Shown here piece after piece: positions 64 through 43,119 of a stretch of 64,000 bases of DNA. The stretch is from contig JAZDMX010000023.1 of assembly GCA_043800555.1 (NCBI GenBank), positions 9,101-73,100 of the forward strand, written 5' to 3'. The notes under the pieces were generated by a model that searched no databases, was not told the origin of the DNA, and saw nothing but the letters and a program-made list of their open reading frames with translations. Source of the stretch: Candidatus Omnitrophota bacterium. GTDB lineage: Bacteria > Omnitrophota > Gorgyraeia > Gygaellales > Profunditerraquicolaceae. The first letter of the stretch is position 1; every line of letters starts with the position of its first letter. Position numbers and translations under genes: made by a program.

Positions 64-126
64 CGTCTCCTTTTTTTCCTTGACAAAACTCAAGTTAATG
101 ATATGCTCTCTAGGTAGAGAGCGGAT

Positions 127-357
127 ATGGATACCAACCAAAACATTTACCTAATTAAGGATCTGGCAAGATTAACCGGTTATTCAATTTATACTATCAA
201 ATATTACCTCAAAATCGGCCTAATCAAAGAAACCGGGCGCTTTCCCGAAACCCATTACAGGTATTTCAACGATACCACCATAAAAACACTCAAAGACATA
301 CATAATTTAAGAAAAGAGAATAAATCGATACGGGAAATCAAAAATGAGTTATTATAA
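127..357 (+). CDS. Small MerR-like HTH transcriptional regulator (76 aa)
   Basis: The N-terminal segment LIKDLARLTGYSIYTIKYYLKIGLI resembles a MerR-type helix-turn-helix. TTGACA at 81-86 lies upstream. An 18-bp palindrome at 105-122 sits just before the ATG. Confidence 0.45.
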   Translation: MDTNQNIYLIKDLARLTGYSIYTIKYYLKIGLIKETGRFPETHYRYFNDTTIKTLKDIHNLRKENKSIREIKNELL

Positions 358-1168
358 GGCCCTAAATCTGCAAAAAGAGCCGTTCTCAACCAGCCCCGAC
401 CCCGGGCTCCTATACCGCTCTGCCAGCCATGACACTGCCTTAAAACGCCTGGAGATAGCCATCAGGCTAAGGCGCGGCTTGAGCCTGGTTTTGGGCGACG
501 TGGGAACAGGCAAGACCACCCTCTCCCGGGCGCTCTTGCAGGCATTTAAAGAAGAGGATGATTTTATTTTTCATATGATCCTTGACCCCAACTATAAATC
601 CGAATTTCAGTTTCTCCTTAGCCTAGTGAAAATGTTCGGAATTACTCCTAATTTTAAGTCTACTCTCGATTTTAAAGAAGCGCTGGAAAAATACCTGTTT
701 CAAAAGGGCGTGGAAGAAAATAAAACCATAGTCTTATTGATTGATGAAAGCCAAAAAATCACGCCTGAAAACCTGGAAGTCCTAAGGACCCTTCTCAACT
801 ACGAAACCAACGAATATAAGTTACTGCAGCTGGTAATAGTCGGCCAGACCGAACTTCTGCCCAGGATACAACGTATCCGCAATTTTATGGACCGCATTGC
901 GTTAAAATATACGATTAACCCGCTTGATCAGAACGAAACCCGGGAAATGATCGAATTCAGGCTTAAACAGGCGGGGCTGGCCGACCCGGCAAAACTCTTT
1001 ACGGAGAAAGCAGTTTGGTCTATCTATGAACACACTCAAGGTTATCCGCGCAAGATTGCCATGCTTTGCCATGATTGCCTGGAAACCATAGTCATGAAAG
1101 AGCTACCGGCCGTTGACGCTGCAACAGTAAACGCCTTGATTCTTCAAGAAAAGAAGTATGAAAAATAA
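344..1168 (+). CDS. GspA/ExeA-like AAA ATPase (secretion/pilus assembly accessory), short form without a PG-binding domain
   Basis: Walker A motif LVLGDVGTGKTTL and Walker B motif LLIDESQ. Length and order match ExeA/MshM-type ATPases. It lies directly upstream of a secretin gene. Confidence 0.7.
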   Translation: MSYYKALNLQKEPFSTSPDPGLLYRSASHDTALKRLEIAIRLRRGLSLVLGDVGTGKTTLSRALLQAFKEEDDFIFHMILDPNYKSEFQFLLSLVKMFGITPNFKSTLDFKEALEKYLFQKGVEENKTIVLLIDESQKITPENLEVLRTLLNYETNEYKLLQLVIVGQTELLPRIQRIRNFMDRIALKYTINPLDQNETREMIEFRLKQAGLADPAKLFTEKAVWSIYEHTQGYPRKIAMLCHDCLETIVMKELPAVDAATVNALILQEKKYEK

Positions 1169-1724
1169 TATAAGCCCCGAAGAAAAACTTTTGCGCCTGA
1201 TACGCGGCCAAAAATGGGCTAAAGATACCGGTAAGCCGTCCCCTAAGAAAAAGGTTCATTTTCCTTCAATAAGCCTTAAAAAATGTTTTTTAATTATTTT
1301 TACAGCCTCGTGCGCTTATCTGGCCTTTTCACTGGCTTACGCTCTATTTATGCCAAAAGATACCGGCTCCTTAAAAATACCTGAAAAAGACCATCCGGCT
1401 GATAGTATCAACCCGGCTCAAGGCGTAAAGTCTTACGAATTCTATTCCGAAACAATAAAAGGCAGGAATATATTCAATAATCCGGGACCTCAAGGCGATA
1501 CGGAAAACGCTGCGGTCGTCATGGGAGATGACCTGCTAAAGGACATTAACCTTGTCGGCATCATTGCCGGAGACACCCCGCAGGCAGTTGTTGAAGACAA
1601 AAAGTCGCAAAAAACTTACTACGTGGTTAAAAACCAATTTATCGGCAGATTCCAGGTAGAAGATATTCAAAACGGGAAAATCATCCTTAGGTCTAACGGA
1701 CAAAAATATGAACTCTTTTTATAA
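1158..1724 (+). CDS. Hypothetical bitopic membrane protein (GspB-like topology: cytoplasmic N-terminus, one TM, periplasmic C-terminus)
   Basis: The ORF has one hydrophobic segment FLIIFTASCAYLAFSLAYALF. It sits between the GspA-like gene and the secretin gene, overlapping both. Confidence 0.4.
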   Translation: MKNNISPEEKLLRLIRGQKWAKDTGKPSPKKKVHFPSISLKKCFLIIFTASCAYLAFSLAYALFMPKDTGSLKIPEKDHPADSINPAQGVKSYEFYSETIKGRNIFNNPGPQGDTENAAVVMGDDLLKDINLVGIIAGDTPQAVVEDKKSQKTYYVVKNQFIGRFQVEDIQNGKIILRSNGQKYELFL

Positions 1725-1743
1725 TATTAAGGAGGGTTGGTCA

Positions 1744-3600
1744 ATGCACAAAGCTATCCTTTTAGTTGCGCTTGCTGCGTTATTTGCCTGCGGCATCCGG
1801 ATTGAAGGTTTTGCGGAAGAGGGCCTGCCACAGGAAGAGCAGGGTATCGCGGCCTCCGGCCATTCAAACAGAATTTCCCTCGATGTCAAAGATATGGATA
1901 TTGTGGACGTATTAAAAATCCTTACAAGCCATTCGGGGATGAATATAGTCATCGGAAAAAATGTCGCCGCCCGGGTTACCCTTTTTCTTAAAGACGTCGA
2001 CATCCGGGATGCCTTTGAGATAATCCTTCTGGCCAATGACCTGGCTTACGATAAGCAGGATGGCATAATCAACATTATGTCTGGCAGAGACTACGAGATG
2101 ATTTACGGCACCCCTTTCCGGGACAAAAAGCAAGCTAGGATAATCAAGCTGGAATACGCCAAAGCAGCCGATATTGTGCGCGCGCTGAACCAGTTTAAAA
2201 CCAATTCCGGGCGCATAATCGCGGACGAAGGGACCAACACTATCGCCATAATCGATGTCCCTGAAGTGACTAAGAGCATGGAGGACTTTATCGCCAAAGC
2301 CGACGCTCCCCTGCAAACAAAAGTATTTGATTTGAATTATGCCCAAGCGGAGAAGCTTAACGCCAGCCTGCAGGAAATACTGACAAAAAATATCGGCAGA
2401 ATAAAAATTGACGAACGCACAAATAAAATGGTTGTAACCGATTACCCGCAAATAATCAATGAAATAAGCAAAATAATCAAAGCGTTTGACGAAAAGAATA
2501 TGCAAGTCTTAATCAACGCTCAAATAATCAACCTGACCCCTTCGGATCAATTCCAAATGGGGGTAAACTGGGACTACTGGATAAAGAAATATATCGATGT
2601 CAAGCTATCCCTGCCCGTAAATACCGCTAATGCCCTGTTTGTGGGAACGAACAAAACCGGCGACCCTAATCACCCGGGCCAATTCAAGGCAATTGTCGAT
2701 ATTTTACGCACTATCGGAGACGCAAAGGTTTTATCAAGCCCCAGGATCATCTCTTTAAACAACCAGGAAGCAAAAATCCACGTGGGCACCCGGGACGCTT
2801 ATATCACCTCGACAACGTCCCAAAGCGGCAGCGGCACCGCCGTAACTTCGCAAGAAGTTAACTTTGTCGACTGGGGCATACAATTATATGTTACTCCCAC
2901 TATAAATAAGGAAGGCTTCATTACAATGAAAATCAAGCCCGAATTAAGCGATGCTACCCGCACCGATATTAAATCAGAAGGGCAAATTACACAGGTGCCT
3001 ATCATAACTACTTCCGAATCCGAAAGCACCGTAACGGTCAAAGACGGTGTAACAATAATCATCGGCGGTTTAAGGAAGGACAAGAGGATAAAAACCGTAA
3101 AGCAGATCCCTGTTTTGGGAGACATACCGGGGCTGGGAATGCTCTTTAGGTCTACGGACGATAAAACCGAAATAAATGAACTGATAATACTGCTTACCCC
3201 GCATATAATTACGGGCGAAAAGTCTTATTCGGATGTCTCCGAGCTTGCCCCCAAAGACGGCGTAGTGGCAAAAATGGAAGGCGGGAACATAGTTTTTTCT
3301 AAAACTTCCCCTGCTGCCGACAATACCTCTGCTTATTACCGCTCTATAGTCGATAAAGTAAAGGCTACAGCGTTGCTTATCCGGCCGAAAGGAGAAAAAG
3401 CAAGAGGAGAGGTCAGGCTGAACTTCGTGCTCTACAAAGACGGCACCATTATTGACGGGCCGTATATAGAAAAAACGAATAACCCCGAATTAAATTTGAA
3501 AGCAATTGAAGCAGTAAGGCTGGCTGCTCCATTTCAACCATTACCTCTTAAAGAAGATAAGGATAGGAAAAATTTCAGCATATGTTTGTCTTATGAGTAA
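1744..3600 (+). CDS. Secretin (GspD/PilQ family) with a C-terminal TonB_C-like domain
   Basis: AAGGAGG is 8 nt upstream of the ATG at 1744, and the signal peptide is MHKAILLVALAALFAC. The secretin C-domain motif is VPVLGDIPGLGMLFRSTDDKTEINELIILLTPHII. The last ~130 aa (GEVRLNFVLYKDGTIIDGPYIEKTNNPELNLKAIEAVRLAAPFQPLP) match the TonB C-terminal fold pattern. Confidence 0.8.
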   Translation: MHKAILLVALAALFACGIRIEGFAEEGLPQEEQGIAASGHSNRISLDVKDMDIVDVLKILTSHSGMNIVIGKNVAARVTLFLKDVDIRDAFEIILLANDLAYDKQDGIINIMSGRDYEMIYGTPFRDKKQARIIKLEYAKAADIVRALNQFKTNSGRIIADEGTNTIAIIDVPEVTKSMEDFIAKADAPLQTKVFDLNYAQAEKLNASLQEILTKNIGRIKIDERTNKMVVTDYPQIINEISKIIKAFDEKNMQVLINAQIINLTPSDQFQMGVNWDYWIKKYIDVKLSLPVNTANALFVGTNKTGDPNHPGQFKAIVDILRTIGDAKVLSSPRIISLNNQEAKIHVGTRDAYITSTTSQSGSGTAVTSQEVNFVDWGIQLYVTPTINKEGFITMKIKPELSDATRTDIKSEGQITQVPIITTSESESTVTVKDGVTIIIGGLRKDKRIKTVKQIPVLGDIPGLGMLFRSTDDKTEINELIILLTPHIITGEKSYSDVSELAPKDGVVAKMEGGNIVFSKTSPAADNTSAYYRSIVDKVKATALLIRPKGEKARGEVRLNFVLYKDGTIIDGPYIEKTNNPELNLKAIEAVRLAAPFQPLPLKEDKDRKNFSICLSYE

Positions 3601-6801: not shown

Positions 6802-7371
6802 ATGTGCAGGAAAAATTTGTTTTATTTAACAGGCTTGTCTCTGGTTTTATTGCTCTCGGGTTGCGTCAGCCGGACATATTCTTTGACAAAAGACAGGGTT
6901 GACCAGAATTTGTCCGCCGGTAACCATGGTTATATCAGCGGAAAGTCCCCGGACGAAAAAACAGCCCCGAGGAAAACAGAGCGCACCATTAGAGTTTTTG
7001 AGTTTGAATTCGGCAAGCCTTATAGGGCCAAACAGGTAAATGCGCCGCTATTATCGCAGCAGCAAGGCTCAAATAACTTCGCCGGCATCAAGGAAAGCGA
7101 AATTAGCGAAGAGCCGGCCAGGGAAGAATCAAGCGCTTCCAAAAGCTCAACCGGCCGCCAATATGCCGTAGAGAAAAATGATACCCTGCAAAAAATATCC
7201 CAGAAATTCTACGGGACAACCAAGAAATGGACGAAAATTTACAATGCCAACAAGGACGTCTTAAAAGGGCCGGATAAGGTTTACCCCGGGCAAACGCTCA
7301 ACATACCGGATGCCGAAAAAGTTGAACAGGCCGCCGAGAAATTAGAAGAGCCGAAAGAAAACCTCAAATAG
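6802..7371 (+). CDS. LysM-domain lipoprotein
   Basis: Lipobox LLLSGC. The C-terminal LysM domain is YAVEKNDTLQKISQKFYG...YPGQTLNIP. Confidence 0.6.
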   Translation: MCRKNLFYLTGLSLVLLLSGCVSRTYSLTKDRVDQNLSAGNHGYISGKSPDEKTAPRKTERTIRVFEFEFGKPYRAKQVNAPLLSQQQGSNNFAGIKESEISEEPAREESSASKSSTGRQYAVEKNDTLQKISQKFYGTTKKWTKIYNANKDVLKGPDKVYPGQTLNIPDAEKVEQAAEKLEEPKENLK

Positions 7372-11003: not shown

Positions 11004-11930
11004 ATGAAGATAGGGATTGTTGGGCCGGGGGCAATAGGGTGTTTATTGGCTGCTTATCTATCCAAAGCCAAAGAAGAGGTATGGGTCATTGATTATAAAA
11101 AGGAGCGGGCTGAAAACATCAACAAAACCGGGATAAGCCTGACAGGATTATCCGGAGAATGGCACTGCTCTCCCAAGGCAAGATCCGATGTAAAAGGCAT
11201 AGGGATCGCCGATTTGGCCATCCTTTGCGTTAAGTCTTACGACACAAGAGCCGCCATAGCGCATTCAAAGCCGCTAATCGGGGAAAATACTTCTGTTTTG
11301 ACCTTGCAAAACGGCATAGACAATATAGAAATAATCAGCGAGGCAATCGGAGGAAAGAACATAATCGCAGGAGTGACAAACATGGGGGCAACGCTCCTGG
11401 ATACCGGCAAAACCAAACACGCCGGTAAGGGCGAAACGATAATCGGCAGGGTAGACGGAAAAATCACCGCCGAGATGCGCTCCATCCGCGAGCTTTTTAA
11501 TAAAGTCGGCCTGGAAATGCGCATTTCCAAAGACATAAAACCCCTGCTCTGGTCAAAATTAATCATTAACTCCGGCATTAACGCCCTGACAGCCATAACA
11601 GGCCTTAAAAACGGAAGGTTGACGGAATTCGAGGGCTCCCGCCGGATCTTGCGCGAAGCAGTTACCGAAGCAACCCGCATAGTCAAAAGAAAAAGAATCA
11701 AGCTTATCTATGATGACCCGCTGGCTAAGGTCGAAGCCGTATGCGAGGCTACCGCCGAAAACACCTCTTCAATGCTGCAGGACGTCTTAGGCAAGAAACG
11801 CACGGAAATCGATTTCATAAACGGGGTGATTGTGCGGCTGGGGCAAGAATTGGGAATACCTACGCCCACAAATACAATGCTGGTAGATTTAGTTAAAACC
11901 ATTGAAGCCAGTTACAATCTATCCCTCTAA
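11004..11930 (+). CDS. panE: 2-dehydropantoate 2-reductase
   Basis: N-terminal Rossmann motif MKIGIVGPGAIGCLLA. Overall ApbA/PanE length and pattern. Confidence 0.7.
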   Translation: MKIGIVGPGAIGCLLAAYLSKAKEEVWVIDYKKERAENINKTGISLTGLSGEWHCSPKARSDVKGIGIADLAILCVKSYDTRAAIAHSKPLIGENTSVLTLQNGIDNIEIISEAIGGKNIIAGVTNMGATLLDTGKTKHAGKGETIIGRVDGKITAEMRSIRELFNKVGLEMRISKDIKPLLWSKLIINSGINALTAITGLKNGRLTEFEGSRRILREAVTEATRIVKRKRIKLIYDDPLAKVEAVCEATAENTSSMLQDVLGKKRTEIDFINGVIVRLGQELGIPTPTNTMLVDLVKTIEASYNLSL

Positions 11931-27245: not shown

Positions 27246-28580
27246 ATGAGTAAACGCTTAAGTTTGGTGCTTGCGCTTCTATTTACGATAGGCACAACAT
27301 TCGCCTACGCTGAAGTGCAAAATATCAAGGTATCGGGCGATATCTTGGCAAGCGGAGTAACAAGAAGCCATTTTGGCCTCATTGCCGCAACATCAGGGGA
27401 TAAGAGCGCGTTGAAGCAAAGTTTTATTATGTCTCAAATCAGGCTTCGTGTTGACGCCGACCTTACCGACAATGTCATGGCAACCGTAAGGCTTATCAAC
27501 GAAAGAATCTGGAACGGCCAAAACGATACTACCTCTAGCGGAAATTCGAATATTGACCTTGACTTAGCCTACGTTACCTTAAAGGAATTCTTATACTCTC
27601 CTTTAAGCTTCACAGTCGGCCGTCAGGAAATCCGTTTTGGTAATGGATTGGTCATGGGCAACGCAAAGGCGGACATCAGCGGGACATCAACCATTCCTAC
27701 CGATTTAAGCGAAAGAAAGGCCTTTGACGCCATACGCGCTACTCTTAATTATGATCCTTTAGTGATTGATTTGGTCTATGCTAAGGTAAAGCAAGCTACT
27801 TCCGTGGATAGGAATACCATTGGCTTAGCCGGCGTTAATGCTACTTACGCGGTAAACAAAGATACCAATGTGTCTGCTTACTATTTCTTAAAAAGGGACA
27901 ACTATAAAGGCACTTCCCTGGGACGCGGCGAGCCCGATCAATTAAACACTATCGGCGGCTTGGTAACCAGCACCCCGATCGAGAACTTAACCGTATCCGG
28001 AGAGGCTGCTTATCAGTTCGGAAGAAACGATTCTTCCAACACAACCCAGAAAAAACATGATGCCTGGGCGTTTCAGGCTATGGCGGATTATATCTTTGCC
28101 AAGGTCAAAACAACTCCTAAAATCGGAGCTTCGTGGACCTATTTATCCGGGGGCAAGGCCAGCGGCACTGACGCTACCAGGAATCAAGGCTGGGACGCAA
28201 TGTTCTACGATCAGAAATTGAACAATATCGTCTACGCAATCCTGCCTTTTACGAATATGAATGCTTTCAACTTAAAGGCCAGTTGCAAACCGTTAGATGA
28301 CGTTACGGTGTCTGCTGTATATGGTTATTATAATGTAGCCAAGCAGAGCACCGCGGCTGTCATCAGCCCATTCTACTATGACGGGTCTGCTCAATATTTA
28401 AACACCAACTATACAGGCAAAACACATCTCGGCGACGCAATTGATTTAACCGCAACCTATGACTATACCGAAGATGTGCAGTTAGGTTTAACCTATGGAT
28501 GGTTTAAACCGGGCAATGCCCTGGCAACAAACGAGAAAGACGCCAATCAGTTAATTGGTTCTTTAAAGGTAATATTCTAA
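27246..28580 (+). CDS. Outer-membrane beta-barrel protein (porin-like)
   Basis: Signal peptide (LFTIGTTFAYA), alternating amphipathic beta-strand pattern and a C-terminal Phe (SLKVIF). Confidence 0.55.
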   Translation: MSKRLSLVLALLFTIGTTFAYAEVQNIKVSGDILASGVTRSHFGLIAATSGDKSALKQSFIMSQIRLRVDADLTDNVMATVRLINERIWNGQNDTTSSGNSNIDLDLAYVTLKEFLYSPLSFTVGRQEIRFGNGLVMGNAKADISGTSTIPTDLSERKAFDAIRATLNYDPLVIDLVYAKVKQATSVDRNTIGLAGVNATYAVNKDTNVSAYYFLKRDNYKGTSLGRGEPDQLNTIGGLVTSTPIENLTVSGEAAYQFGRNDSSNTTQKKHDAWAFQAMADYIFAKVKTTPKIGASWTYLSGGKASGTDATRNQGWDAMFYDQKLNNIVYAILPFTNMNAFNLKASCKPLDDVTVSAVYGYYNVAKQSTAAVISPFYYDGSAQYLNTNYTGKTHLGDAIDLTATYDYTEDVQLGLTYGWFKPGNALATNEKDANQLIGSLKVIF

Positions 28581-33687: not shown

Positions 33688-34811
33688 CTATTTCATTCTC
33701 CGGGTTAAAATTACCTGGGCGGGAAAAATCGAATTATCTCCCAAGCGGCCATTGATCTTATCCAGCGCCTTAACCAAAGCCTCTCTGCGCCTTTGTTCGG
33801 GTAATAAAGGCAGGTAACTTTGCCACTCTAAACTGCTGGCAGTTACTCCCAGGGCCCTGATTTTTGGCCTTTTCCGGGCCTCCTGGGCCATTAATTTAAG
33901 GGCTCTCAAGTATATTTCATAGCTATCATTGGTAGCCATTGAAAAGGTTTTTTGGGCCAGAAAATCGCCTTTATCCGGCATATTCAGCCAGATATGGGTT
34001 GTCCGGGAGGCAAGCTCGTTCTGCCTTAAACGCTCGCCAACCATTTCAGATAATACCCTGATCCAGGCGTTGATAAACCGGGGGTTTTCCAAAGCTTTCG
34101 GCAAGGTGTAGGAATGGCTTATTGACTTAGGCCGTTCGCCGCTTTCCCGGTTTCCTTAAACTTACCGGAATTTTCATTAACCCCTGCTGCGCCAAAGAAT
34201 CCCGGTAAGTTCAGGTATAAATCCCAGCAGCTTCTTAACCCCTGGCGCATTAAAATCTGCCCGGTTTTGCCTGCCATGCCACAAGCCTTGGTAAGCGGAG
34301 TTAAAGCCAGGACATCCTTAAGGTTGGAATCGTCTATCCGGGTAACTCCGTCAGGCTTATTGACCTTAGAAGCCAGCTTGGCAAGAAGTTGGTTTTCGGC
34401 TATGCCAACTGAAGCGGTAATGTTAAAGTTTGCATATATCTGCTCCCGGATCTGTTTAGCTAATTTAAGCGGTTGGGGGTAATCCCGGATATCCAGCTGG
34501 AATTCATCAATTGAAACGTAATTCAGCGGGAACCCGAAACCTTTAAGCAGCTCAAGGATTTGCCCGGAAGTCCAGATATACTTGGCCTGGCTTGCCGGCA
34601 CAAACTCTAAATTTGGGCAGATGTTAAAGGCGTCTTTTGAGAGCATCCCGGAATGTATTCCCAGGCGCTTAGCTTCATAGCTGGCGGCGCAAACCACGGT
34701 GCGCGTTTTATTGGCGCGCGAGCCCACAATCAAAGGCTTGCCTTTAAGGCGCGGGTTTATGGCCTGCTCAATTGAAGCAAAAAACGCGTCCATATCGATG
34801 TGCAGGATCAT
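33688..34811 (-). pseudogene. dinB: DNA polymerase IV (dinB), interrupted by frame lesions
   Basis: N-terminal 2/3 (MILHIDMDAFFASIE...SIDE...) in one frame and little-finger domain (ERPKSISHSYTL...) in another. In-frame stops and frame switches cluster at 34156-34215. Confidence 0.6.
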
Positions 34812-34846
34812 ACGGGGATAAAAGCCATAAGCCAGGGGTTAAAGCA

Positions 34847-35155
34847 TCAGGTAATTATCTTGTCTATCTGCCAACGGAAGGTGGAATTATTGAATGATAT
34901 CTGGTAAAGCTGGCCGGCGCTAATCACGGAGAAATAATTAATCCGGGCCTGGCCCAGCCGCTCCTGCCAATTGTAGGTTATGGTCTCTATGCCATATTCT
35001 TTATTATTCCAAAGAAAAGTTTTAGGGTAAATCCTGGTATTCTTAAAATAAGCCAGGACTTCGATGCGCTCGCCTAAATCATCCGGGTCAAACCCGGATT
35101 TATCCGGCTCAAATTTGTCCCATCGCGCATTAGGATTAAAGCTATTTTGCCCCAT
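34847..35155 (-). CDS. Hypothetical protein (102 aa) between lexA and dinB; likely SOS-regulon member
   Basis: Same strand and tight spacing within the lexA–dinB unit. I recognise no family. Confidence 0.45.
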   Translation of the reverse strand: MGQNSFNPNARWDKFEPDKSGFDPDDLGERIEVLAYFKNTRIYPKTFLWNNKEYGIETITYNWQERLGQARINYFSVISAGQLYQISFNNSTFRWQIDKIIT

Positions 35156-35217
35156 ATCTTTCTGCCTTTGCTTTTTCCCGCATACTATATAATAAATATA
35201 CTAATACACTATAAGCC

Positions 35218-35829
35218 TTAATATTTCCTGATTACCGTCATCAGCTTCCCGATTACCTTGAATTCTTCAAAAATTGGCGGATAATCCGGGTTAGCCGCTT
35301 CCAAATGGTATTTATTGTTCTTACGCGCCAGCCTTTTTAAAGTAACTTCGTTATCATCCAAAAGCGCGGCCACAATCTCGTTATTTTCGGCATAGGGTTG
35401 TTTCTTAATAACCGCTACATCCCCATCAAGAATGCCGGCATCAACCATGCTATTGCCTTTGACCTTTAAGGCAAAAACGTCGTCAAAGCCTAAACGGCCC
35501 AGGAATAAATTATCCACATCCACATAACCTTGGATTTCTTCATAAGCCAGATTGGGCTTTCCGGCTAAAATTGACCCAAGAATAGGTATTTTATTGAAAC
35601 TGGCGCGTTCGGTTAATTCAATTGCCCGGGATTTGTTATTCATACGCCTGACCAATCCTTTCTGCTGTAAAGCCTTTAAATAGTCTCTTACTGTGCCGGT
35701 GGACTTGACCCCCAACTCCCCTGCTATCTCCCTGATCGTAGGAGGCAGCCCCTCCCCTATCCGTTTACGGATAAAATTGAGCGCCTTTTCCTGTTTGTGC
35801 GTTAAATACGGCTTCTTTTCCATAGCCAT
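35218..35829 (-). CDS. lexA: LexA repressor
   Basis: N-terminal wHTH (LTHKQEKALNFIRKRIGEGLPPTIREIAGELG) and a C-terminal S24 peptidase with the Ala-Gly cleavage site, Ser (GNSM) and Lys. Start taken at MAMEKK (35829). Confidence 0.85.
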   Translation of the reverse strand: MAMEKKPYLTHKQEKALNFIRKRIGEGLPPTIREIAGELGVKSTGTVRDYLKALQQKGLVRRMNNKSRAIELTERASFNKIPILGSILAGKPNLAYEEIQGYVDVDNLFLGRLGFDDVFALKVKGNSMVDAGILDGDVAVIKKQPYAENNEIVAALLDDNEVTLKRLARKNNKYHLEAANPDYPPIFEEFKVIGKLMTVIRKY

Positions 35830-35860
35830 AGATATACCACACAAATGTGTGGTTTGTCAA
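35830..35860 (-). promoter_or_regulatory. lexA promoter with 16-bp perfect palindromic operator CCACACAAATGTGTGG (candidate SOS box)
   Basis: On the minus strand: TTGACA - AACCACACATTTGTGTGG - TATATC, then ATG. The palindrome fills the -35/-10 spacer. Confidence 0.55.
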
Positions 35861-37345: not shown

Positions 37346-38350
37346 CTAGCCTTGCAATAATTTAAGTATCCGTTGCGCGATTTTTTGGGGCTTGTCTTTG
37401 TCTTTGATATTAACCCACTTTACGCGCTTATCTTTCCTAAACCAGGAGAGTTGCCTCTTGGCGTAATGCCGGGTATTACGCTTAATCAAACGCAAGGCTT
37501 CTTCCAGGCCATGCCTACCTTCAAAATACCCAGCCGTTTCTTTTATGCCAATTGCTGCCGAGGCAGTCCGGCTTAACTGCTTAGCGAGCAATTTCTTGGC
37601 CTCTTTTAATAATCCGGCCTTAAGCATATTGTCAACCCGGGTATCAATTCTCCTGTAGAGAGCGGCTCTATCCATATTTAAACAAAATATCTTTACGGAA
37701 TAATCATTGCTTAAGCCTTTTCGCTCTTTTTGTAATGCCGATATGGGTTTCCCGCTGGCCTCAAAAACCTCTAAAGCCCGGATAACCCGCTTGAGGTCAT
37801 TAGGATGGATCCTGCCGGCTGCGCTTTTATCAACTTTTTTTAACCGGTTATATAGATAACCTTTTCCGTATTTACGCGCCTGACCGTAAAGCTTCTTGCG
37901 CAAGGCCGGGTCGCTTTTACCTTCCTTAAAAATACCGTCAATAAGCACGGAAACATACAAACCCGTGCCGCCGCAAAAAACCGGTATTTTCCCTTTTGCG
38001 GTTAACCTATCCACAATCTCCCCGGCTTCTTTCCGGTACCTGAAAACATCATATTCCTGTTGGCAGGAGACAGAGCTGATAAAATGGTGCTTTATCTTTT
38101 TTCTTAAGGCGCTGGCGGGTTTTGAAGCGATGATATCCATGCCTTTATAAACCTGCATGGAGTCGCAAGAGAGGACATGGCTCTTAAGCCTCTTGGCCAA
38201 TGCAGCCGCTACCGCGGATTTGCCTGCGGCGGTCGGGCCTACTATAAAGATTATCTTGCCTTGGGGTTTTAGATTATTGCAACCGGAAGATGTGCCGCCA
38301 AGCGGCCTGGATTGTAAAGCCCCGGGATTAAAACGCTTCTTTAAGGGCAT
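37346..38350 (-). CDS. miaA: tRNA dimethylallyltransferase
   Basis: P-loop IIFIVGPTAAGKS and the MiaA pattern. The start is uncertain; the N-terminal ~25 aa of the track ORF are probably an extension. Confidence 0.8.
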   Translation of the reverse strand: MPLKKRFNPGALQSRPLGGTSSGCNNLKPQGKIIFIVGPTAAGKSAVAAALAKRLKSHVLSCDSMQVYKGMDIIASKPASALRKKIKHHFISSVSCQQEYDVFRYRKEAGEIVDRLTAKGKIPVFCGGTGLYVSVLIDGIFKEGKSDPALRKKLYGQARKYGKGYLYNRLKKVDKSAAGRIHPNDLKRVIRALEVFEASGKPISALQKERKGLSNDYSVKIFCLNMDRAALYRRIDTRVDNMLKAGLLKEAKKLLAKQLSRTASAAIGIKETAGYFEGRHGLEEALRLIKRNTRHYAKRQLSWFRKDKRVKWVNIKDKDKPQKIAQRILKLLQG

Positions 38351-39192
38351 ATTTTGGTGGGATAGCCTTCTTCCCGAAGCCGCTTATTCAAGGCTTCGGA
38401 TTCCTGCCGGCTTTTTAATTTCCCGACTTTCACCCTATAGGCCTTGGCCCCTGAAGCGTTAACGCCTTCTTCAACGTAAGCAGGATAACCGCTATTTGAC
38501 AGTTTTCGCGTAAGATTACTGGCGTTATCGGGGTTGGAAAACGAACCTACCTGGACAGAATAATAAAAACCGGAGTTATCGCCCTCAACCGGGCAACTTT
38601 GCCGGATCTGGCCGGCTTCCGGAGCCAAAGGGTATTTTTCTCTTAGCCGGGATAAATAATCCCTCCCTGAATTTAAATCCCCTTTATTAAAGCCGACTTC
38701 GCTCAAACGGTAAAATATTTGCGTTTTTAGCTTCGTCCCGGGATTATTGTTAATTATGCCTTGATAGATTTCTCCGGCCTTTGTGAAATCATTCCGCAAG
38801 AAATACGTATCCCCCAAGCCCATCATCGCCTCTTCCTTGAACCTTGAGCCGCGGAATTCATGGATGATTATCTCAAAGATGTCCGAAGCGCGCAGGTAAT
38901 TACCGTCTTTTAAATAGCACAACCCCAGGATATAATAAAGTTCGTCGGAATGCGGGTCTTGGGCAATAAGCTTCTCTCCTTCGGTTATAGCAGCCCGGTA
39001 ATCTCCTTCTAAGAGGCTTACTTTCATATTATCCAAATTCAAGGCATAAGCGTAAGAGATAAAAACAAACGATAAACAACAGGCAGCTAAGAACCAACCG
39101 ATAACCGGTTGCCCTGGCTCCTTACATCCGGAGGCCGGGTTTTTGGCCTTTGGAATCATTTGGTAATCGGGATTTGGCGGCTGTTTATTCAT
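38341..39192 (-). CDS. TPR-repeat protein with C-terminal SPOR (septal peptidoglycan-binding) domain
   Basis: TPR-like repeats (YYILGLCYLKDGNY, GDTYFLRNDF). C-terminal SPOR pattern YYSVQVGSFSNPDNASNLTRKL...YRVKVGKLKSRQESEAL. Confidence 0.6.
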   Translation of the reverse strand: MNKQPPNPDYQMIPKAKNPASGCKEPGQPVIGWFLAACCLSFVFISYAYALNLDNMKVSLLEGDYRAAITEGEKLIAQDPHSDELYYILGLCYLKDGNYLRASDIFEIIIHEFRGSRFKEEAMMGLGDTYFLRNDFTKAGEIYQGIINNNPGTKLKTQIFYRLSEVGFNKGDLNSGRDYLSRLREKYPLAPEAGQIRQSCPVEGDNSGFYYSVQVGSFSNPDNASNLTRKLSNSGYPAYVEEGVNASGAKAYRVKVGKLKSRQESEALNKRLREEGYPTKICP

Positions 39193-40331
39193 TTCTTGGA
39201 TTTCGATATTCCTTTTTGCAAATCCAGCACTAGCTTATGCCTTCTCTCCTTCTCCTGCCTGGATACCGTATCCGCCATCTTAAAGGCTGCGGTATGAGGG
39301 CGGGGAGAATATTTGAATATAAAGGCGGCGTTAAACCGGACAGATTTTACCAGGCTAAGGGTATCTTTGAAATCAGCTTCATCCTCGGCCGGGAAACCAA
39401 CGATTATATCGGTTGTCAGCGCGCCCCCCTTTACAATTTTACGATAATTATCCGCTAAATCCAAATAGTATTTTCTGGAATACCCGCGGTTCATAAGCTT
39501 CAGGATCCGGTCCGAGCCGGATTGAGCCGGCAGATGCAGGTATTTCTTCAGTTTCCCGGCGCCTGCCATAGCCTGAAACAATTCTTTCCCGGCATCTTTC
39601 GGGTGAGAAGTGATAAACCCGAATTCCTTCAAGCCCTTAATAGCGTTAACCATTTCGATAAGCTTAACGAAATCAACTCCCTGGCTCCGGAAGGAATTCA
39701 CGTTCTGGCCCAATAAAGTAAATGCGGTAATGCCCTTATCTACGGCGCTCTCTATCTCCCTGATTATATCTTCGGGCTTGCGGTGGCGTAAATTCCCGCG
39801 GCTATAAGGAACAACACAGTAAGAGCAAAAGTTAGAGCAACCTTCGGAGATGACCACAAAAGAATGGTTTTTATCCCGGTAGAAACCGGTATGGTAAATT
39901 TCTTCCGGCCTGGCATCCCCGTCAGTCTCCCATATTTTACGCTCAAAGGCCTTTTGATCCCGGGAAAGTTTTTGGATAATATGGGGTATTTTAGCGATAT
40001 CCGCCGGGCCAACCACAAAATCAATGTTCGGCGAGCGTTCAAATGCCGTGTTCTGGTAATTCTGGGCCATGCAGCCTATAAGCCCGATAAGCGGCTTATT
40101 CTTACCGGCCTTGGCGGCAACCCTGCCGATCTCTGACCAGGCCTTATCTTCCGCGTGCTGGCGCACAGAACAGGTATTAATGATTATTATGCCAGCCTTA
40201 TCCGGATCATCGCAGATCTCATACCCTGATCCCTGTAATAACCCAGCCACTACCTCGGAATCCCGGATGTTCATCTGGCACCCGAAGGTGCGGACAAAAA
40301 CTTTCTTTTTTTGTATCTCTTTATTAATCAT
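39189..40331 (-). CDS. miaB: tRNA methylthiotransferase (MiaB/RimO-like radical SAM MTTase), short form without a clear TRAM domain
   Basis: MTTase N-domain (VFVRTFGCQMN...IIINTCSV). Radical SAM CxxxCxxC (CSNFCSYC). It lies next to miaA. Confidence 0.7.
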   Translation of the reverse strand: MINKEIQKKKVFVRTFGCQMNIRDSEVVAGLLQGSGYEICDDPDKAGIIIINTCSVRQHAEDKAWSEIGRVAAKAGKNKPLIGLIGCMAQNYQNTAFERSPNIDFVVGPADIAKIPHIIQKLSRDQKAFERKIWETDGDARPEEIYHTGFYRDKNHSFVVISEGCSNFCSYCVVPYSRGNLRHRKPEDIIREIESAVDKGITAFTLLGQNVNSFRSQGVDFVKLIEMVNAIKGLKEFGFITSHPKDAGKELFQAMAGAGKLKKYLHLPAQSGSDRILKLMNRGYSRKYYLDLADNYRKIVKGGALTTDIIVGFPAEDEADFKDTLSLVKSVRFNAAFIFKYSPRPHTAAFKMADTVSRQEKERRHKLVLDLQKGISKSKK

Positions 40332-40408
40332 GTTGTTGTAAAGATGCTAGCGTCTCGGGGCTTTGTCACGTACGTTCATTGGTTCCATTCAAAAATAAAA
40401 CAATATCT

Positions 40409-41692
40409 TTATTCTGCATTATTGCCAATTTTAATTTCTCTAAGCACTGCTTTTACTAATTCTTTTCCTTGTAATCCACCAATTTGATGTTTTTTGATAA
40501 TTTTTTCAAGATCATATTCGTCTTTATCAATTACTATAATATTTCTCGGTAGAATTACATAATCTGGATGGTTATCTATAGCATTTGAAATTATTAAACT
40601 ATCATTAGAATATCTTCCGATAAGATTATGAATTTTTGCAGCAATAACATATCCCTTATAAGGAAACAAAAAGTCAATTTCGCCAGCTAAAATATTCCCG
40701 CCACCTTTCGAGCAATCAAAGAATGCATCTGCCTTTTCCACAGTCCAAGTTCCAGAGCCCATTAGAAGCTTATTTGGCATTAATTCAGAGAAAACTTTTA
40801 ATGCTTTTATATAATCTTTTTCTATCATTAAAATTTTGAGCATGCTGTTTGATTTCTCATAATATCGTAGATCTAGATAAAGCTTATAACAAGCCGGCTG
40901 TTCTACGGCCATTTCAGCCAAAACCCTTCGTTCCTCTGGAGACAATACTCTATGAGCAAATAAATTAGCTAGGCCTTCAGCAAAGTTTATATCATTTATA
41001 TATTTTGAATCGCTTGTTATTGGCCAATTATCGGGCAAGAGATTTGATAATGAATAATGGTGCCCTAATTCGTGTATTAATGTTACACGAAATAAAGCTT
41101 TCTCTAAATCTGTAATTTTTTCATCTGCAAGCCTAGTTTTTAGCTTATTCGAAAGTTTTTCAATTAATTCAGGACGAATTACTACATAACAACCTCCTTT
41201 GACAAGTTTAATACCCATAAACTCCAAGTCTTGCGGTAGCATACTCCAATAAGCAAGAGGCGTTTCTAAAGTAACTCGCTTTTGTTTTAATAATAGCTGT
41301 CTTATGCCTTTGTCATCTAGCCCCTGAATTTTTTTAAAGTCATTAATTCCTAATTCTATATCTTCCTTTGAATTAGTCTTTTCGTCAGTGAACAAACTAT
41401 AATCTTTTTCGTCTAAGACTAAAATAGCATATAGTGGTTGCTTAACAATGCCTAGAACCTCATTAGCATCTTCAATCTTAGGACTCAAAGGTTTAATAAT
41501 TCCCTCAACTAAATCGGCGTACTCTTTAACATTTTCTGAGTAAAGAATTTGCTGGGTACATAGGCCGGGAGTTTCTTTCTTCTGCAATTTATTATCCGCC
41601 CTCATTTGATTCCTCTCCTTCCTATGATAACCACTAGCAAGACAGCCATTTAACATCAATAAACCAACTAAAAGGCAAATTAAACTTTTCAT
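40409..41692 (-). CDS. Predicted zinc-metallopeptidase-like lipoprotein (HExxH) in a low-GC island
   Basis: Lipobox LMLNGC. HELGHH, then a glutamate about 25 residues downstream (EGLANLFA), the zincin arrangement. Local GC is clearly lower than the flanks. Confidence 0.45.
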   Translation of the reverse strand: MKSLICLLVGLLMLNGCLASGYHRKERNQMRADNKLQKKETPGLCTQQILYSENVKEYADLVEGIIKPLSPKIEDANEVLGIVKQPLYAILVLDEKDYSLFTDEKTNSKEDIELGINDFKKIQGLDDKGIRQLLLKQKRVTLETPLAYWSMLPQDLEFMGIKLVKGGCYVVIRPELIEKLSNKLKTRLADEKITDLEKALFRVTLIHELGHHYSLSNLLPDNWPITSDSKYINDINFAEGLANLFAHRVLSPEERRVLAEMAVEQPACYKLYLDLRYYEKSNSMLKILMIEKDYIKALKVFSELMPNKLLMGSGTWTVEKADAFFDCSKGGGNILAGEIDFLFPYKGYVIAAKIHNLIGRYSNDSLIISNAIDNHPDYVILPRNIIVIDKDEYDLEKIIKKHQIGGLQGKELVKAVLREIKIGNNAE

Positions 41693-41769
41693 ATTCTTAA
41701 GTTTCTAATTCTTTAACTAACTCATTTATTCGTAGTTATTTAGCTTCTTCAATATCCCCAAAATCATCA

Positions 41770-41945
41770 CGCGGTACTTACACCAACGGTCAGCCGAAAG
41801 TCCGGATGAAAACTTTTTTCTTATCTTCTTTCATATTTATGCCTTATGGTATCGTGCAAAAGTGTCTAAAACTGTATAGTAGAAGCTGTTCTATACATCT
41901 TTTGTCTGCTTCAAATATTATCTCTAGGAATCTTTCAAATTGCGT
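41770..41945. repeat. Internally deleted partial copy of the element at 43120-43640 (segments R1, TGTCTAAAACTGT box, R2)
   Basis: 41800-41835 ~ 43170-43205 (35/36 nt). 41864-41900 ~ 43240-43278. 41902-41945 ~ 43577-43620. Confidence 0.7.
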
Positions 41946-42023
41946 TATTTCTTTACAAAATCTTGCCTCGAAACAAAAACCCAGGCACTTTAAAACGCCT
42001 GGGTTAATCGATCCTGATGCCTT

Positions 42024-42353
42024 TTAAATTCCAGCTTTCTTAAAAGTGCCTTTGACGAATTCGAGATACTCAAGGCCATCCTTCTCTCCTACAAAAAATC
42101 CGCCGTCATAAAGATTAACATTTCGCTCCTGCCTCATCTTATTGCCAAGCACGAGAATATCTTCATCCTTAAGTAATTGACTCAGCTTCTCCAAAATCTT
42201 CACATGATGGCCGGCTGTGCTTCTTACTTTATAGCCTTTCTTGGCAATCAGCATAATGCCCAGCTTAATAAGGGCGTCGTAGCAGAATTTGAAAACAACG
42301 CCGGGGATATCCGACTCTTTAGCGATTTTAAGATCGTGCAAAACAGAACGCAA
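42024..42353 (-). CDS. HEPN-domain protein (toxin-like partner of the adjacent nucleotidyltransferase)
   Basis: Small all-helical protein with an R-x4-HH motif (RSTAGHH), immediately downstream of an MNT gene. Confidence 0.5.
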   Translation of the reverse strand: MRSVLHDLKIAKESDIPGVVFKFCYDALIKLGIMLIAKKGYKVRSTAGHHVKILEKLSQLLKDEDILVLGNKMRQERNVNLYDGGFFVGEKDGLEYLEFVKGTFKKAGI

Positions 42354-42415
42354 AAACTGATCAATCTGCTTTTATTGAAATGTTAGCTTTTGAAAATATT
42401 GGCTCTCGAAATGAA

Positions 42416-43000: not shown

Positions 43001-43119
43001 TTATTTTGTCAAGTAAATTACGGTTCAAGGCATAATCCATCAAATCCTGCTTTGTCCTTATCAATCCCTATCGCCTTTCCTAACCTTCAACAATATCAAC
43101 GGGTTCTGTTTACCAGATG

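What the first reader, a model, noticed from the sequence alone, without database searches (positions are those of the whole stretch)
344..3600. Secretin with a fused C-terminal TonB_C-like domain, downstream of a GspA/ExeA-like AAA ATPase and a GspB-topology protein
In Aeromonas and Vibrio the ExeA/ExeB (GspA/GspB) pair assists secretin assembly. ExeB is a TonB-like protein that contacts the secretin. Here a TonB C-terminal-type domain of about 130 aa (…RGEVRLNFVLYKDGTIIDGPYIEKTNN…LKAIEAVRLAAPFQPLP) is fused to the C-terminus of the secretin itself, after the canonical secretin C-motif. The short GspA-like ATPase and a bitopic protein are encoded just upstream. This fusion is an unusual architecture for a T2SS or T4P secretin.
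Basis: partly seen in the sequence, partly recalled or inferred. Interest (0 to 1): 0.55.

Follow-up and report, generated by a model that had tools for sequence, protein, structure and literature searches.

The report
Omnitrophota secretin carrying a TonB-type tail
The outer-membrane channel of a secretion/pilus machine found across the uncultivated phylum Omnitrophota ends in an extra domain copied from the TonB energy-coupling protein; the fusion is real and conserved, I found no paper describing it, and its function is unknown.

Summary
Window 1744-3600 (true start; RBS AAGGAGG upstream) encodes one uninterrupted 618-aa secretin: signal peptide, N0/STN, two Secretin_N domains, secretin barrel, a conserved hairpin motif, a short spacer, and a 93-aa C-terminal domain.

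The window opens at the end of a conserved T2SS-like operon: GspE-F-pseudopilins-K-L-like-M-like-MerR-ATPase-HR protein-secretin. The ATPase is a short, soluble GspA/MshM-type protein. The bitopic protein carries a GspC/GspB-type HR domain.

ExeB/GspB's secretin-binding domain is an HR fold, not TonB_C, and an HR protein is still encoded separately. The fused domain is instead a paralogue of the phylum's own TonB.

Most likely it is a tethered periplasmic docking or anchoring module. This is inferred, not shown. No paper found describes it. New variant of a known kind; interest moderate.

The parts
80..107 (+). Promoter-like site (TTGACA-16-TATGCT, TG-extended) upstream of the MerR gene; possible internal promoter of a MerR-ATPase-HR-secretin sub-operon
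   Evidence: The number of such sites in the region is not above the shuffle expectation, so this is weak.
127..357 (+). 76-aa MerR-type HTH protein; its end overlaps the ATPase start by 14 nt
   Evidence: Pfam MerR_1 50.2 bits; found directly upstream of the ATPase in 55 loci.
344..1168 (+). 274-aa soluble P-loop ATPase of the GspA/ExeA-MshM-PEP-CTERM ATPase type (Walker A GDVGTGKTT, DESQ box); no TM segment and no periplasmic peptidoglycan-binding region
   Evidence: AAA_22 71.5 bits. TIGR03015 176 bits over 3-264/269, below its cutoff of 324. No hydrophobic window reaches 1.6. Present in 64 loci.
1158..1724 (+). 188-aa bitopic inner-membrane protein: conserved cytoplasmic SPEEKLLRLIRG motif, one TM helix (aa ~42-65), C-terminal HR domain (aa ~125-188) of the GspC/GspB/PilP type; no PDZ domain and no C-terminal extension
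   Evidence: Pfam T2SSC 31.9 bits, cutoff 27. Family: 29/30 members hit T2SSC and 22/30 hit T2SSB. Best PDB profile hit is 3oss_C, the GspC HR domain, E=0.013. TM segment. Present in 79 loci.
1731..1737 (+). Shine-Dalgarno AAGGAGG, 6 nt before ATG 1744
1744..3600 (+). Secretin-TonB_C fusion gene (618 aa plus stop)
1744..1815 (+). Sec signal peptide (approximate)
   Evidence: Hydrophobic maximum at residues 5-23; helix 2-17 in the model.
1870..2106 (+). N0 / STN domain
   Evidence: Pfam STN 25.8 bits and GspD N0; model elements 43-121.
2131..2487 (+). Two Secretin_N (N1/N3-type) ring domains
   Evidence: Pfam Secretin_N, 2 stretches, 90.8 bits; model residues 130-248.
2503..3210 (+). Secretin beta-barrel/gate domain
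   Evidence: Pfam Secretin 156 bits; model residues 254-489; Foldseek hits to GspD/ExeD/PulD/InvG/PilQ at E~1e-21.
3214..3297 (+). Conserved post-barrel motif GE-S--DFSEI-PKDGAVAKM-KG-IV, predicted as a beta-hairpin at low confidence; retained even in some relatives that lack the C-domain
3319..3597 (+). TonB/TolA-type C-terminal domain (alpha-beta-beta-alpha-beta, 93 aa)

Best explanation
SHOWN. Window 127-3600 is the distal end of a T2SS-like (type IV filament superfamily) operon conserved across Candidatus Omnitrophota. The order is GspE(MshEN)-GspF-minor pseudopilins-GspK-PilM/N fusion (GspL-like)-GspM-like-MerR-short GspA-like ATPase-HR-domain protein-secretin. The secretin is an ordinary N0 + 2x Secretin_N + barrel protein. 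It continues, in the same ORF, into a conserved hairpin motif, a variable disordered spacer (barrel end to domain 18-126 aa in relatives, mostly 37-56) and a 93-aa domain with the TonB/TolA C-terminal fold. That domain is a paralogue of the phylum's own TonB C-terminal domain. It is ancestral to this secretin family and under purifying selection, but has been lost repeatedly.

INFERRED. In solved secretins the C-terminus (S-domain) lies on the periplasmic outside of the barrel just under the outer membrane. Each of the 12-15 subunits would therefore dangle one TonB-type domain on a flexible tether around the channel. The domain has no TM anchor, no proline-rich rod and no ExbBD coupling, so it cannot transduce proton-motive force by itself.

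All characterised TonB/TolA C-domains work by capturing a short beta-strand of a partner. The most likely role is therefore a passive docking/anchoring module. It would tie the secretin ring to an envelope partner, either a cell-wall-associated or an outer-membrane protein. This would stabilise or position the channel.

[quoted passage not shown] All of these are absent from this operon's GspA-like, HR and secretin proteins. The soluble ATPase and the HR protein (which should bind N0) supply the inner-membrane side of secretin assembly.
For: - Architecture.
- Conservation: 120/120 top homologues have the region. About 62/80 GTDB-species loci have it in-frame. It is present on the deepest branches of the NJ tree, with one loss clade plus about eight scattered losses.
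- Operon: the syntenic relative L001, 80 loci and NCBIfam best hits GspE/F/I/J/K/M.
- Origin: stand-alone 227-aa TonB proteins (S..H TM motif, P/K-rich spacer) sit next to a TBDT with the canonical TonB box ILVTPSR. Their CTD scores 59-68 bits on the secretin C-domain HMM.
- Missing anchors: the ATPase has no TM or periplasmic part, and the HR protein ends at the HR domain.
- Precedent: anchoring modules of T2SS secretins vary and swap between components (PMC9239104).
Against: - No partner was identified and no binding was tested. The anchoring role is an argument by elimination and analogy.
- The domain has been lost at least eight times while the rest of the operon persists, so it is dispensable in some lineages.
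- Its presence does not anticorrelate with the ATPase or any other operon gene I could score, so no compensation pattern supports the 'replacement anchor' idea.
- The sequence scores to TonB_C/TonB_2/TIGR01352 sit close to their cutoffs.
- The periplasmic location of the C-terminus is assumed from solved secretins, not shown for this protein.
Confidence: 0.45

Rival explanations
1. Intramolecular or inter-subunit TonB-N0 interaction. The TonB-type domain binds the secretin's own N0/STN domain or an adjacent strand, mimicking TonB binding next to the STN domain of TonB-dependent transducers. It would act as a built-in chaperone or 'self-pilotin' during transit and assembly, or as a latch on the periplasmic gate.
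For: N0 scores as the STN domain shared with TonB-dependent receptors. A TonB-like interaction with N0 strand beta2 was proposed long ago for ExeB/GspC (PMC4098917). No pilotin-type gene is seen in the operon.
Against: In the assembled ring, N0 is far from the barrel's C-terminus and the typical tether is only ~40 residues. The HR protein already occupies the N0-binding role (PMC9239104). No free TonB-box-like strand is conserved before N0. The full-length monomer model has low pTM, and the tool output gave no coordinates or inter-domain error estimates to judge docking.
Confidence: 0.15
2. TonB-box capture of other proteins. The ring of TonB-type domains binds TonB boxes of TonB-dependent transporters or TonB-box-like strands on secreted cargo (for example the giant adhesin-like proteins encoded near T2SS-like loci). 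This would cluster the uptake and secretion machines or recruit substrates.
For: The domain is a close paralogue of a genuine TonB CTD whose neighbouring TBDT carries a canonical TonB box. The C-terminal edge strand is conserved. T2SS-like loci flank giant genes in Omnitrophota (10.1101/2023.11.21.568195). A variant with three tandem domains exists, which suggests avidity-type binding.
Against: No TBDT or giant gene lies in this window. T2SS substrates are normally recognised by the inner-membrane platform/pseudopilus and the secretin vestibule, not outside the barrel. No candidate motif was found.
Confidence: 0.15
3. Energised secretin. The secretin-borne domain pairs with the C-terminal domain of the real TonB (TonB C-domains can dimerise), so the ExbBD-TonB motor pulls on the secretin to open its gate or drive its insertion.
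For: The phylum has a bona fide TonB. The fused domain is homologous to its CTD. TonB CTD dimerisation is from my own knowledge of crystal structures, not tested here.
Against: There is no precedent. ExbB/ExbD are not linked to the operon in any of 80 loci. The frequent loss of the domain argues against an essential energy coupling.
Confidence: 0.06
4. Artefact: two genes merged by a sequencing or assembly error, or a chance TonB_C match.
For: The Pfam/NCBIfam scores are near threshold. Three relatives have a single in-frame stop and one a frameshift between core and domain.
Against: The fusion is in-frame in 120/120 database homologues and about 62/80 independent assemblies. The fold match is unambiguous. 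The stray stops are TAA/TAA/TAG at different positions, as expected of sporadic errors or pseudogenes.
Confidence: 0.01

Closest known systems
T2SS secretins GspD/PulD/ExeD with C-terminal S-domain and pilotin (GspS/AspS/PulS)
   Same: N0 + Secretin_N ring domains + secretin barrel. It is encoded in an operon with GspE/F/pseudopilins/K/L/M-like genes and an HR-domain partner. It has a C-terminal appendage after the barrel.
   Different: Scores below the GspD equivalog cutoff (231.5 vs 351). It has only two Secretin_N domains. The C-terminal appendage is a TonB/TolA-fold domain on a flexible tether rather than a helical S-domain. No pilotin gene was seen in the operon.
GspA-GspB (ExeA-ExeB) secretin assembly factors
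   Same: An AAA_22/GspA-type ATPase gene sits immediately next to a bitopic HR-domain protein gene and the secretin gene. GspA variants lacking the periplasmic region exist in Alteromonas (PMC9239104).
   Different: The ATPase is fully soluble (no TM, no peptidoglycan-binding domain). Its best match, TIGR03015, is below cutoff. There is no BLAST similarity to E. coli K-12 GspA beyond Walker A. The HR protein is the only one in the operon and persists where the ATPase is absent, so it is as much GspC/PilP as GspB. A MerR-type HTH gene is inserted upstream.
TonB and TolA C-terminal domains (Pfam clan TolA-TonB-Cterm: TonB_C PF03544, TonB_2 PF13103)
   Different: Attached to the C-terminus of an outer-membrane channel instead of an inner-membrane anchor with a proline-rich rod. 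It is not linked to ExbBD/TolQR. It therefore cannot be an energy transducer in the TonB/TolA sense.
Secretins with built-in cell-wall anchoring domains: PilQ (AMIN domains), Legionella LspD (N-terminal SPOR-like domain), plus the PilQ-TsaP (LysM) ring
   Same: An accessory periplasmic domain is fused to, or ringed around, a secretin and is thought to fix it in the envelope (PMC9239104; PMC2572700 listed; PilQ-TsaP structure 6ve2).
   Different: Those domains are N-terminal or separate proteins with known peptidoglycan-binding folds. Here the domain is C-terminal, of the TonB type, and peptidoglycan binding is untested.
MSHA pilus MshL secretin with MshM ATPase
   Same: A short soluble GspA-like ATPase is encoded next to a secretin. 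GspE carries an MshEN c-di-GMP-binding N-domain.
   Different: The MshL model scores 181.7, below its cutoff of 250. The rest of the operon scores as Gsp I/J/K/M rather than Msh. No TonB-type domain is known on MshL.

Membership tests
Secretin superfamily (Pfam PF00263) | Secretin C-domain HMM above gathering score | tested here: met
   156.2 bits vs 27.5; Foldseek E~1e-21 to ExeD/PulD/GspD/InvG/PilQ.
Secretin superfamily (Pfam PF00263) | N-terminal N0 plus Secretin_N ring-building domains and a Sec signal peptide | tested here: met
   STN/N0 and 2x Secretin_N; model; signal peptide.
T2SS secretin GspD (TIGR02517 equivalog) | Score at or above the curated cutoff of 351.35 | tested here: not met
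   231.5 bits.
T4aP secretin PilQ (TIGR02515) | Score at or above the cutoff of 284.35; AMIN domains | tested here: not met
   251.8 bits, best of all secretin models but below cutoff; no AMIN hit.
MSHA secretin MshL (TIGR02519) | Score at or above the cutoff of 250.2 | tested here: not met
   181.7 bits.
T2SS operon | GspE, F, minor pseudopilins I/J/K, L, M, C and D encoded together | tested here: inconclusive
   In the syntenic relative L001 the best NCBIfam hits are GspE 615 (cutoff 630), GspF 390 (424), GspI, GspJ, GspK and GspM. All are below cutoff, and the L-like protein scores as PilM. The upstream part lies outside the window. No major pseudopilin was identified in L001.
TonB_C / TolA-TonB C-terminal domain clan | Pfam TonB_C or TonB_2 HMM at or above gathering score | tested here: met
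   TonB_C 26.1 vs 24.6 on the full protein. TonB_2 24.4 vs 22 on the isolated region (21.0 on the full protein). NCBIfam TIGR01352 at 26.3 is just under 27.1.
TonB_C / TolA-TonB C-terminal domain clan | alpha-beta-beta-alpha-beta fold superposable on solved TonB/TolA C-domains | tested here: met
TonB protein (energy transducer) | N-terminal TM helix with S..H motif, proline-rich spacer, functional coupling to ExbB/ExbD | tested here: not met
   The domain follows a secretin barrel. The only N-terminal hydrophobic segment is the signal peptide. Genuine Omnitrophota TonB proteins with these features exist separately.
TonB protein (energy transducer) | Binding of a TonB box by beta-strand augmentation | not testable with these tools
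   The C-terminal edge strand is conserved, but no complex prediction or binding assay was available.
GspA/ExeA | Cytoplasmic AAA+ (AAA_22) ATPase domain with Walker A and a DEAQ-like box | tested here: met
   AAA_22 71.5 bits. TIGR03015 aligned over 3-264/269 at E=8e-52, but 176 bits is below the cutoff of 324. The motifs GDVGTGKTT and DESQ are read from the sequence.
GspA/ExeA | TM segment plus periplasmic peptidoglycan-binding region | tested here: not met
   274 aa, no hydrophobic window at or above 1.6, no PG_binding hit. Such short forms are reported for Alteromonas (PMC9239104).
GspB / GspC (HR-domain proteins) | Bitopic topology with a periplasmic HR domain | tested here: met
   One TM at aa 42-65. 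T2SSC 31.9 bits, cutoff 27. 29/30 family members hit T2SSC and 22/30 hit T2SSB. 3oss_C GspC-HR at E=0.013.
GspC | C-terminal PDZ or coiled-coil domain after the HR domain; TIGR01713 at or above 101.6 | tested here: not met
   The protein ends at the HR domain; TIGR01713 scores 15.2 bits.
GspB | Pfam T2SSB at or above the gathering score of 28.4 | tested here: not met
   Window copy 12 bits, E=0.17. Relatives reach E=6.5e-06.

The most novel reading that the evidence does not exclude
The ring of TonB-type domains is not a passive anchor but a functional TonB mimic at the outer membrane. It would engage TonB boxes, the secretin's own STN-type N0 domain, or the real ExbBD-TonB motor. That would couple a secretin channel mechanically or energetically to the TonB system. 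It would be a proton-motive-force- or ligand-gated secretin, and would vindicate the 1990s idea of a TonB-like step in type II secretion.
Probability: 0.1. Interest if true: 0.8.

Novelty: new variant of a known kind. Interest (0 to 1): 0.45.

Why it matters
Secretins are the outer-membrane gates of T2SS, T3SS, type IV pili and filamentous phage. How they are targeted, anchored and gated differs between lineages and is still debated.

A phylum-wide secretin carrying a genuine TonB-fold domain adds a new kind of accessory module to that list. It occurs in a group of ultra-small, probably predatory or parasitic bacteria whose pilus/secretion machinery is thought central to their lifestyle (PMC10066038; 10.1101/2023.11.21.568195).

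It also has an annotation consequence. These proteins are variously named 'TonB family protein', 'TonB C-terminal domain-containing protein' or 'secretin N-terminal domain-containing protein'. As a result, genome surveys may count them as TonB content (possibly in 10.64898/2026.06.07.730766) and miss that they are the T2SS-like secretin.

The domain gives an experimentally tractable handle for finding the secretin's envelope partner: a 93-aa soluble module.

Tried and rejected
- The look-up of encoding contigs on the window's own protein P0001 found nothing on record, so the upstream operon was inferred from the 72%-identical syntenic relative L001.
- The AFDB50 fold search, which would have given organisms for similar domains, was unavailable. 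Independent secretin-TonB_C fusions in other phyla could therefore not be surveyed.
- The exhaustive representative search with the C-domain returned only members of this secretin family, TonB-like proteins and tandem-repeat proteins.
- BLASTP and hhalign of the ATPase and HR protein against E. coli K-12 GspA/GspB/GspC gave nothing beyond Walker A. This is uninformative, because K-12 GspB lacks an HR domain (PMC9239104).
- Foldseek with the full-length model does not discriminate T2SS, T3SS and T4P secretins.
- I looked for a TonB-box-like motif in operon proteins. The only resemblance ('NKMVVTDYP') is the standard buried strand of a Secretin_N domain, so I dropped it.
- I considered stop-codon recoding for the in-frame stops in L034/L044/L069. 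I rejected it because the stops are TAA/TAA/TAG at different positions.
- I tested whether C-domain loss correlates with ATPase/MerR loss. It does not.
- Literature searches for any description of a secretin-TonB fusion found none.
- A few loci are labelled Planctomycetales/Planctomycetia, Patescibacteria, Deltaproteobacteria or Cyanobacteriota. They share the same operon and 40-57% identity. I treat them as probable mislabelled or mis-binned Omnitrophota, but did not verify this.


Full report
OBSERVATION

The ORF scan confirms four co-directional, tightly packed genes at the start of the window:
- a 76-aa MerR-type HTH protein (127-357);
- a 274-aa ATPase (344-1168, overlapping the previous gene by 14 nt);
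- a 188-aa protein (1158-1724, overlapping the ATPase by 11 nt);
- a long ORF, 1708-3600.

There is no stop codon anywhere in the long ORF. Its real start is ATG 1744. A perfect AAGGAGG lies just upstream, the NCBI model of the identical protein (P0001) is 618 aa, and homologues align from that methionine.

Pfam and NCBIfam give these hits:

| Model | Score (bits) | Cutoff |
|---|---|---|
| STN/N0 | 25.8 | 28.4 |
| Secretin_N (2 copies) | 90.8 | 28.2 |
| Secretin | 156 | 27.5 |
| TonB_C (C-terminal end) | 26.1 | 24.6 |
| TonB_2 | 21-24 | 22 |
| TIGR01352 tonB_Cterm | 24.5-26.3 | 27.1 |

The sequence evidence for the C-terminal domain is therefore real but borderline.

IS THE C-TERMINAL DOMAIN REALLY TonB-LIKE?

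I predicted residues 501-630 of the 630-aa ORF (numbered from 1708) with a 64-sequence alignment. The first 36 residues are predicted disordered (pLDDT ~40). Residues 37-130 of the segment fold confidently (pLDDT 85-95) as alpha-beta-beta-alpha-beta.

IS THE FUSION REAL?

The protein comes from a Candidatus Omnitrophota MAG. All 120 best database homologues (54-72% identity, 604-696 aa) contain the C-terminal region with no gaps. The region is less conserved than the core: the most common residue accounts for about 0.5 of each column, against about 0.85 in the core.

A scan of one genome per GTDB species found 343 relatives. The best 80 are almost all labelled Omnitrophota. Using HMMs built from the family, about 62 of these 80 have the C-domain in the same ORF as the secretin core. 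The exceptions are as follows:
- Three loci have one in-frame stop (TAA, TAA, TAG, at different positions) and one has a frameshift. These look like sporadic errors or pseudogenes.
- About a dozen genuinely end soon after the barrel.

On a neighbour-joining tree of the cores, the fusion occupies all deep branches. The losses fall in one small clade plus about eight scattered tips. The fusion is therefore ancestral to the family, maintained by selection, and dispensable in some lineages. The second refutation criterion (two genes merged by error) is not met either.

CONTEXT

The window starts in the middle of an operon. In a 72%-identical relative that is syntenic on both sides (L001), the genes run in this order:
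- upstream: GspE with an MshEN domain, GspF, two or three prepilin-type minor pseudopilins, GspK, a 456-aa PilM-PilN fusion (GspL-like) and a 174-aa GspM-like protein;
- then MerR, the ATPase, the bitopic protein and the secretin;
- downstream: HU, HisRS, AspRS, a LysM protein, PhoH and so on, exactly as in the window.

This order is conserved in nearly every locus with enough sequence. NCBIfam best hits for the upstream proteins are the T2SS models: GspE 615 bits (cutoff 630), GspF 390 (cutoff 424), GspI, GspJ, GspK and GspM. All are below the equivalog cutoffs.

The secretin itself scores below cutoff on all three specific models: PilQ 251.8 (cutoff 284), GspD 231.5 (cutoff 351) and MshL 181.7 (cutoff 250). 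Its predicted structure matches T2SS, T3SS and T4P secretins equally well. It is best described as a divergent T2SS-like member of the type IV filament superfamily.

This is probably what Omnitrophota surveys score as 'type-4a pilus' (PMC10066038) or 'T2SS-like locus' (10.1101/2023.11.21.568195). The rest of the window is housekeeping and signalling genes, with no Tol, TonB or TBDT genes.

THE TWO UPSTREAM PROTEINS

The ATPase has an AAA_22 domain (71.5 bits). It aligns end to end with TIGR03015, the PEP-CTERM-associated ATPase family, which from my own knowledge is described as homologous to MshM and GspA. The E-value is 8e-52, but the score of 176 bits is below the cutoff of 324. It has no transmembrane or periplasmic part. 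It is therefore a short, soluble GspA/MshM-type ATPase, unlike Aeromonas ExeA.

The 188-aa protein has one TM helix and a conserved C-terminal domain. Across 30 family members, 29 hit Pfam T2SSC and 22 hit T2SSB in the same region. The best PDB hit of the family profile is the GspC HR domain crystallised with GspD N0-N1 (3oss_C, E=0.013). It lacks the PDZ/coiled-coil of GspC and any C-terminal extension.

According to PMC9239104:
- the periplasmic domain of GspB/OutB has the same HR fold as GspC and PilP, and binds the secretin N0 domain;
- gspB usually sits beside gspA;
- some GspA proteins lack the periplasmic region.

This HR protein is, however, the only one in the operon, and it persists in a clade that has lost the ATPase. 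It may therefore serve as both GspC and GspB. Comparisons with E. coli K-12 GspA/B/C were uninformative, because K-12 GspB has no HR domain.

WHERE DID THE DOMAIN COME FROM?

Two loci (L016, L018) encode, a few kilobases downstream, a 227-aa protein with three features:
- a TonB-type TM helix (S..H motif);
- a Pro/Lys-rich spacer;
- a C-terminal domain scoring 59-68 bits on my secretin-C-domain HMM.

In L016 it sits directly after a TonB-dependent receptor (Plug plus barrel) and near BtuR. The preceding large ORFs in both loci carry canonical TonB boxes, ERILVTPSR in L016 and EKIVVTPLR in L018.

The window's C-domain is 29% identical (E=1e-07) to this TonB C-domain over its whole length, sharing the signature YY--V--KI ... 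G-V-l-F ... G-l ... AAPF-P-P ... F-i-l-Y/FE.

An exhaustive search of 1.8 billion representatives with the C-domain alone found only 117 hits. They sort into four groups:
- fragments and full-length members of this secretin family;
- ~220-aa TonB-like proteins;
- secreted proteins with 2-5 tandem TonB_C repeats, at least one of them from Omnitrophota;
- one secretin with three tandem C-domains (P0122).

The domain is thus a paralogue of the phylum's own TonB C-terminal domain, recruited onto the secretin.

ExeB was called 'TonB-like' on 39% similarity and a proline-rich region. On that basis a TonB-like interaction with the N0 domain was proposed (PMC4098917). The later OutB structure shows that the secretin-binding domain is an HR fold (PMC9239104).

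The Omnitrophota fusion is therefore not 'ExeB fused to the secretin'. An HR protein is still present as a separate gene, and the fused domain is a true TonB_C fold. Hence my verdict of partly supported.

MECHANISM (INFERRED)

- Location. In solved secretins the C-terminal S-domain lies on the periplasmic outer face of the barrel under the outer membrane (my knowledge of the structures listed). By analogy, each subunit would present one TonB-type domain on a tether. The tether comprises a conserved hairpin-forming motif (GE-S--DFSEI-PKDGAVAKM-KG-IV), which is retained even in some relatives lacking the domain, followed by a variable spacer. The distance from barrel end to domain is 18-126 residues across relatives, mostly 37-56.
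- What it cannot do. Without a TM anchor or ExbBD coupling, the domain cannot transduce energy itself.
- What such domains do. Every characterised TonB/TolA C-domain acts by capturing a partner's beta-strand (established knowledge of TonB-TBDT, TolA-TolB and TolA-g3p complexes, several of which appear).
- Most likely role. The domain is a docking/anchoring module that ties the secretin ring to an envelope partner. In other systems the same job is done by the GspA peptidoglycan-binding domain, the OutB C-terminal extension, the LspD SPOR domain or the PilQ AMIN domains. All are missing from the short ATPase, the HR protein and the secretin N-terminus here.

I give this about 45%. The rivals are binding to the secretin's own STN-type N0 (about 15%), capture of TBDT or cargo TonB boxes (about 15%), and coupling to the real TonB motor (about 6%). 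None could be tested, because no complex prediction was available.

Two facts count against any essential role. The domain has been lost repeatedly, and no compensating pattern appears among the operon genes.

NOVELTY

Automated annotation already shows the architecture (names such as 'TonB family protein' and precomputed PF03544+PF00263 hits). No paper in the searchable library describes a secretin-TonB_C fusion:
- Two main Omnitrophota papers do not contain the words 'secretin' or 'TonB'.
- A 2026 preprint lists two 'TonB C-terminal domain' flanking genes without further interpretation. These may be this secretin.

I could not test whether similar fusions exist outside Omnitrophota, because AFDB50 was unavailable. 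I rate the finding a new variant of a known kind, of moderate interest. The architecture is secure and phylum-wide. The function is open.

Noticed in passing
P0122 (851 aa, 3.3-kb Logan contig); also P0182 (762 aa): A member of the same secretin family carries three tandem TonB_C-like C-domains (residues 516-601, 631-716, 766-851). Another has a ~90-aa spacer before a single domain. Copy number and tether length of the module therefore vary.
   Followed up: partly
P0123 / P0238 (NCBI MBN2119841.1, Ca. Omnitrophota); P0124, P0127 (Melainabacteria) and others: Signal-peptide proteins built of 2-5 tandem TonB_C-like repeats, up to 1183 aa, with no TM anchor or secretin. This is an unexplained expansion of the TonB C-domain as a repeat module.
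   Followed up: partly
window 127-357 (+); 55 related loci: A 76-aa MerR-type HTH gene is conserved inside the secretion operon, immediately before the GspA-like ATPase and overlapping it by 14 nt. A DNA-binding protein translationally coupled to a secretin-assembly ATPase is odd and unexplained.
   Followed up: partly
L016 11288-14040; L018 18544-21272: A conventional TBDT-TonB pair (TonB boxes ERILVTPSR / EKIVVTPLR; in L016 close to BtuR, suggesting corrinoid uptake) lies a few kb downstream of the secretin in two Omnitrophota genomes.
   Followed up: yes
L034 3263-3265, L044 11567-11569, L069 7353-7355; L067 ~11668-11743: Single in-frame stops (TAA, TAA, TAG) or a frameshift separate the secretin core from the C-domain in four genomes. 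These are probably assembly errors or recent pseudogenisation. Alternatively they could be natural 'split' versions.
   Followed up: partly
window 6802-7371 (+): A 189-aa predicted lipoprotein (lipobox LLSGC) with a C-terminal LysM peptidoglycan-binding domain lies three genes downstream of the secretin and is syntenic in L001. It may be unrelated, but LysM proteins (TsaP) ring some secretins.
   Followed up: no
window 38341-39192 (-): A TPR (TPR_6, CpoB/YbgF-like) plus SPOR peptidoglycan-binding protein lies between the MiaA-like and MiaB-like genes.
   Followed up: no
window 27246-28580 (+): An AlgE-type 'Alginate export' outer-membrane barrel (117 bits) lies next to a GH57 glycosidase and a ParA/CBM48 protein. 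This is a possible polysaccharide export/glycogen cluster.
   Followed up: no
window 33688-35844 (-): The Y-family polymerase (IMS) is split into two adjacent ORFs (230 aa IMS + 138 aa IMS_C) next to LexA. This is a possible frameshift or pseudogene.
   Followed up: no
window 40000-44000: A low-GC stretch (36-39% vs ~46% elsewhere) contains a 427-aa ORF with no Pfam hit, a nucleotidyltransferase (NTP_transf_2/Polbeta) and a weak HTH_17 hit (26.8 bits, just under its cutoff of 27). It may be a small mobile or defence island.
   Followed up: no
L058 and L064 (downstream/opposite strand of the secretin): Extra clusters of three GspE-like and one GspF-like genes lie adjacent to the operon in the clade that lacks MerR and the ATPase.
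   Followed up: no
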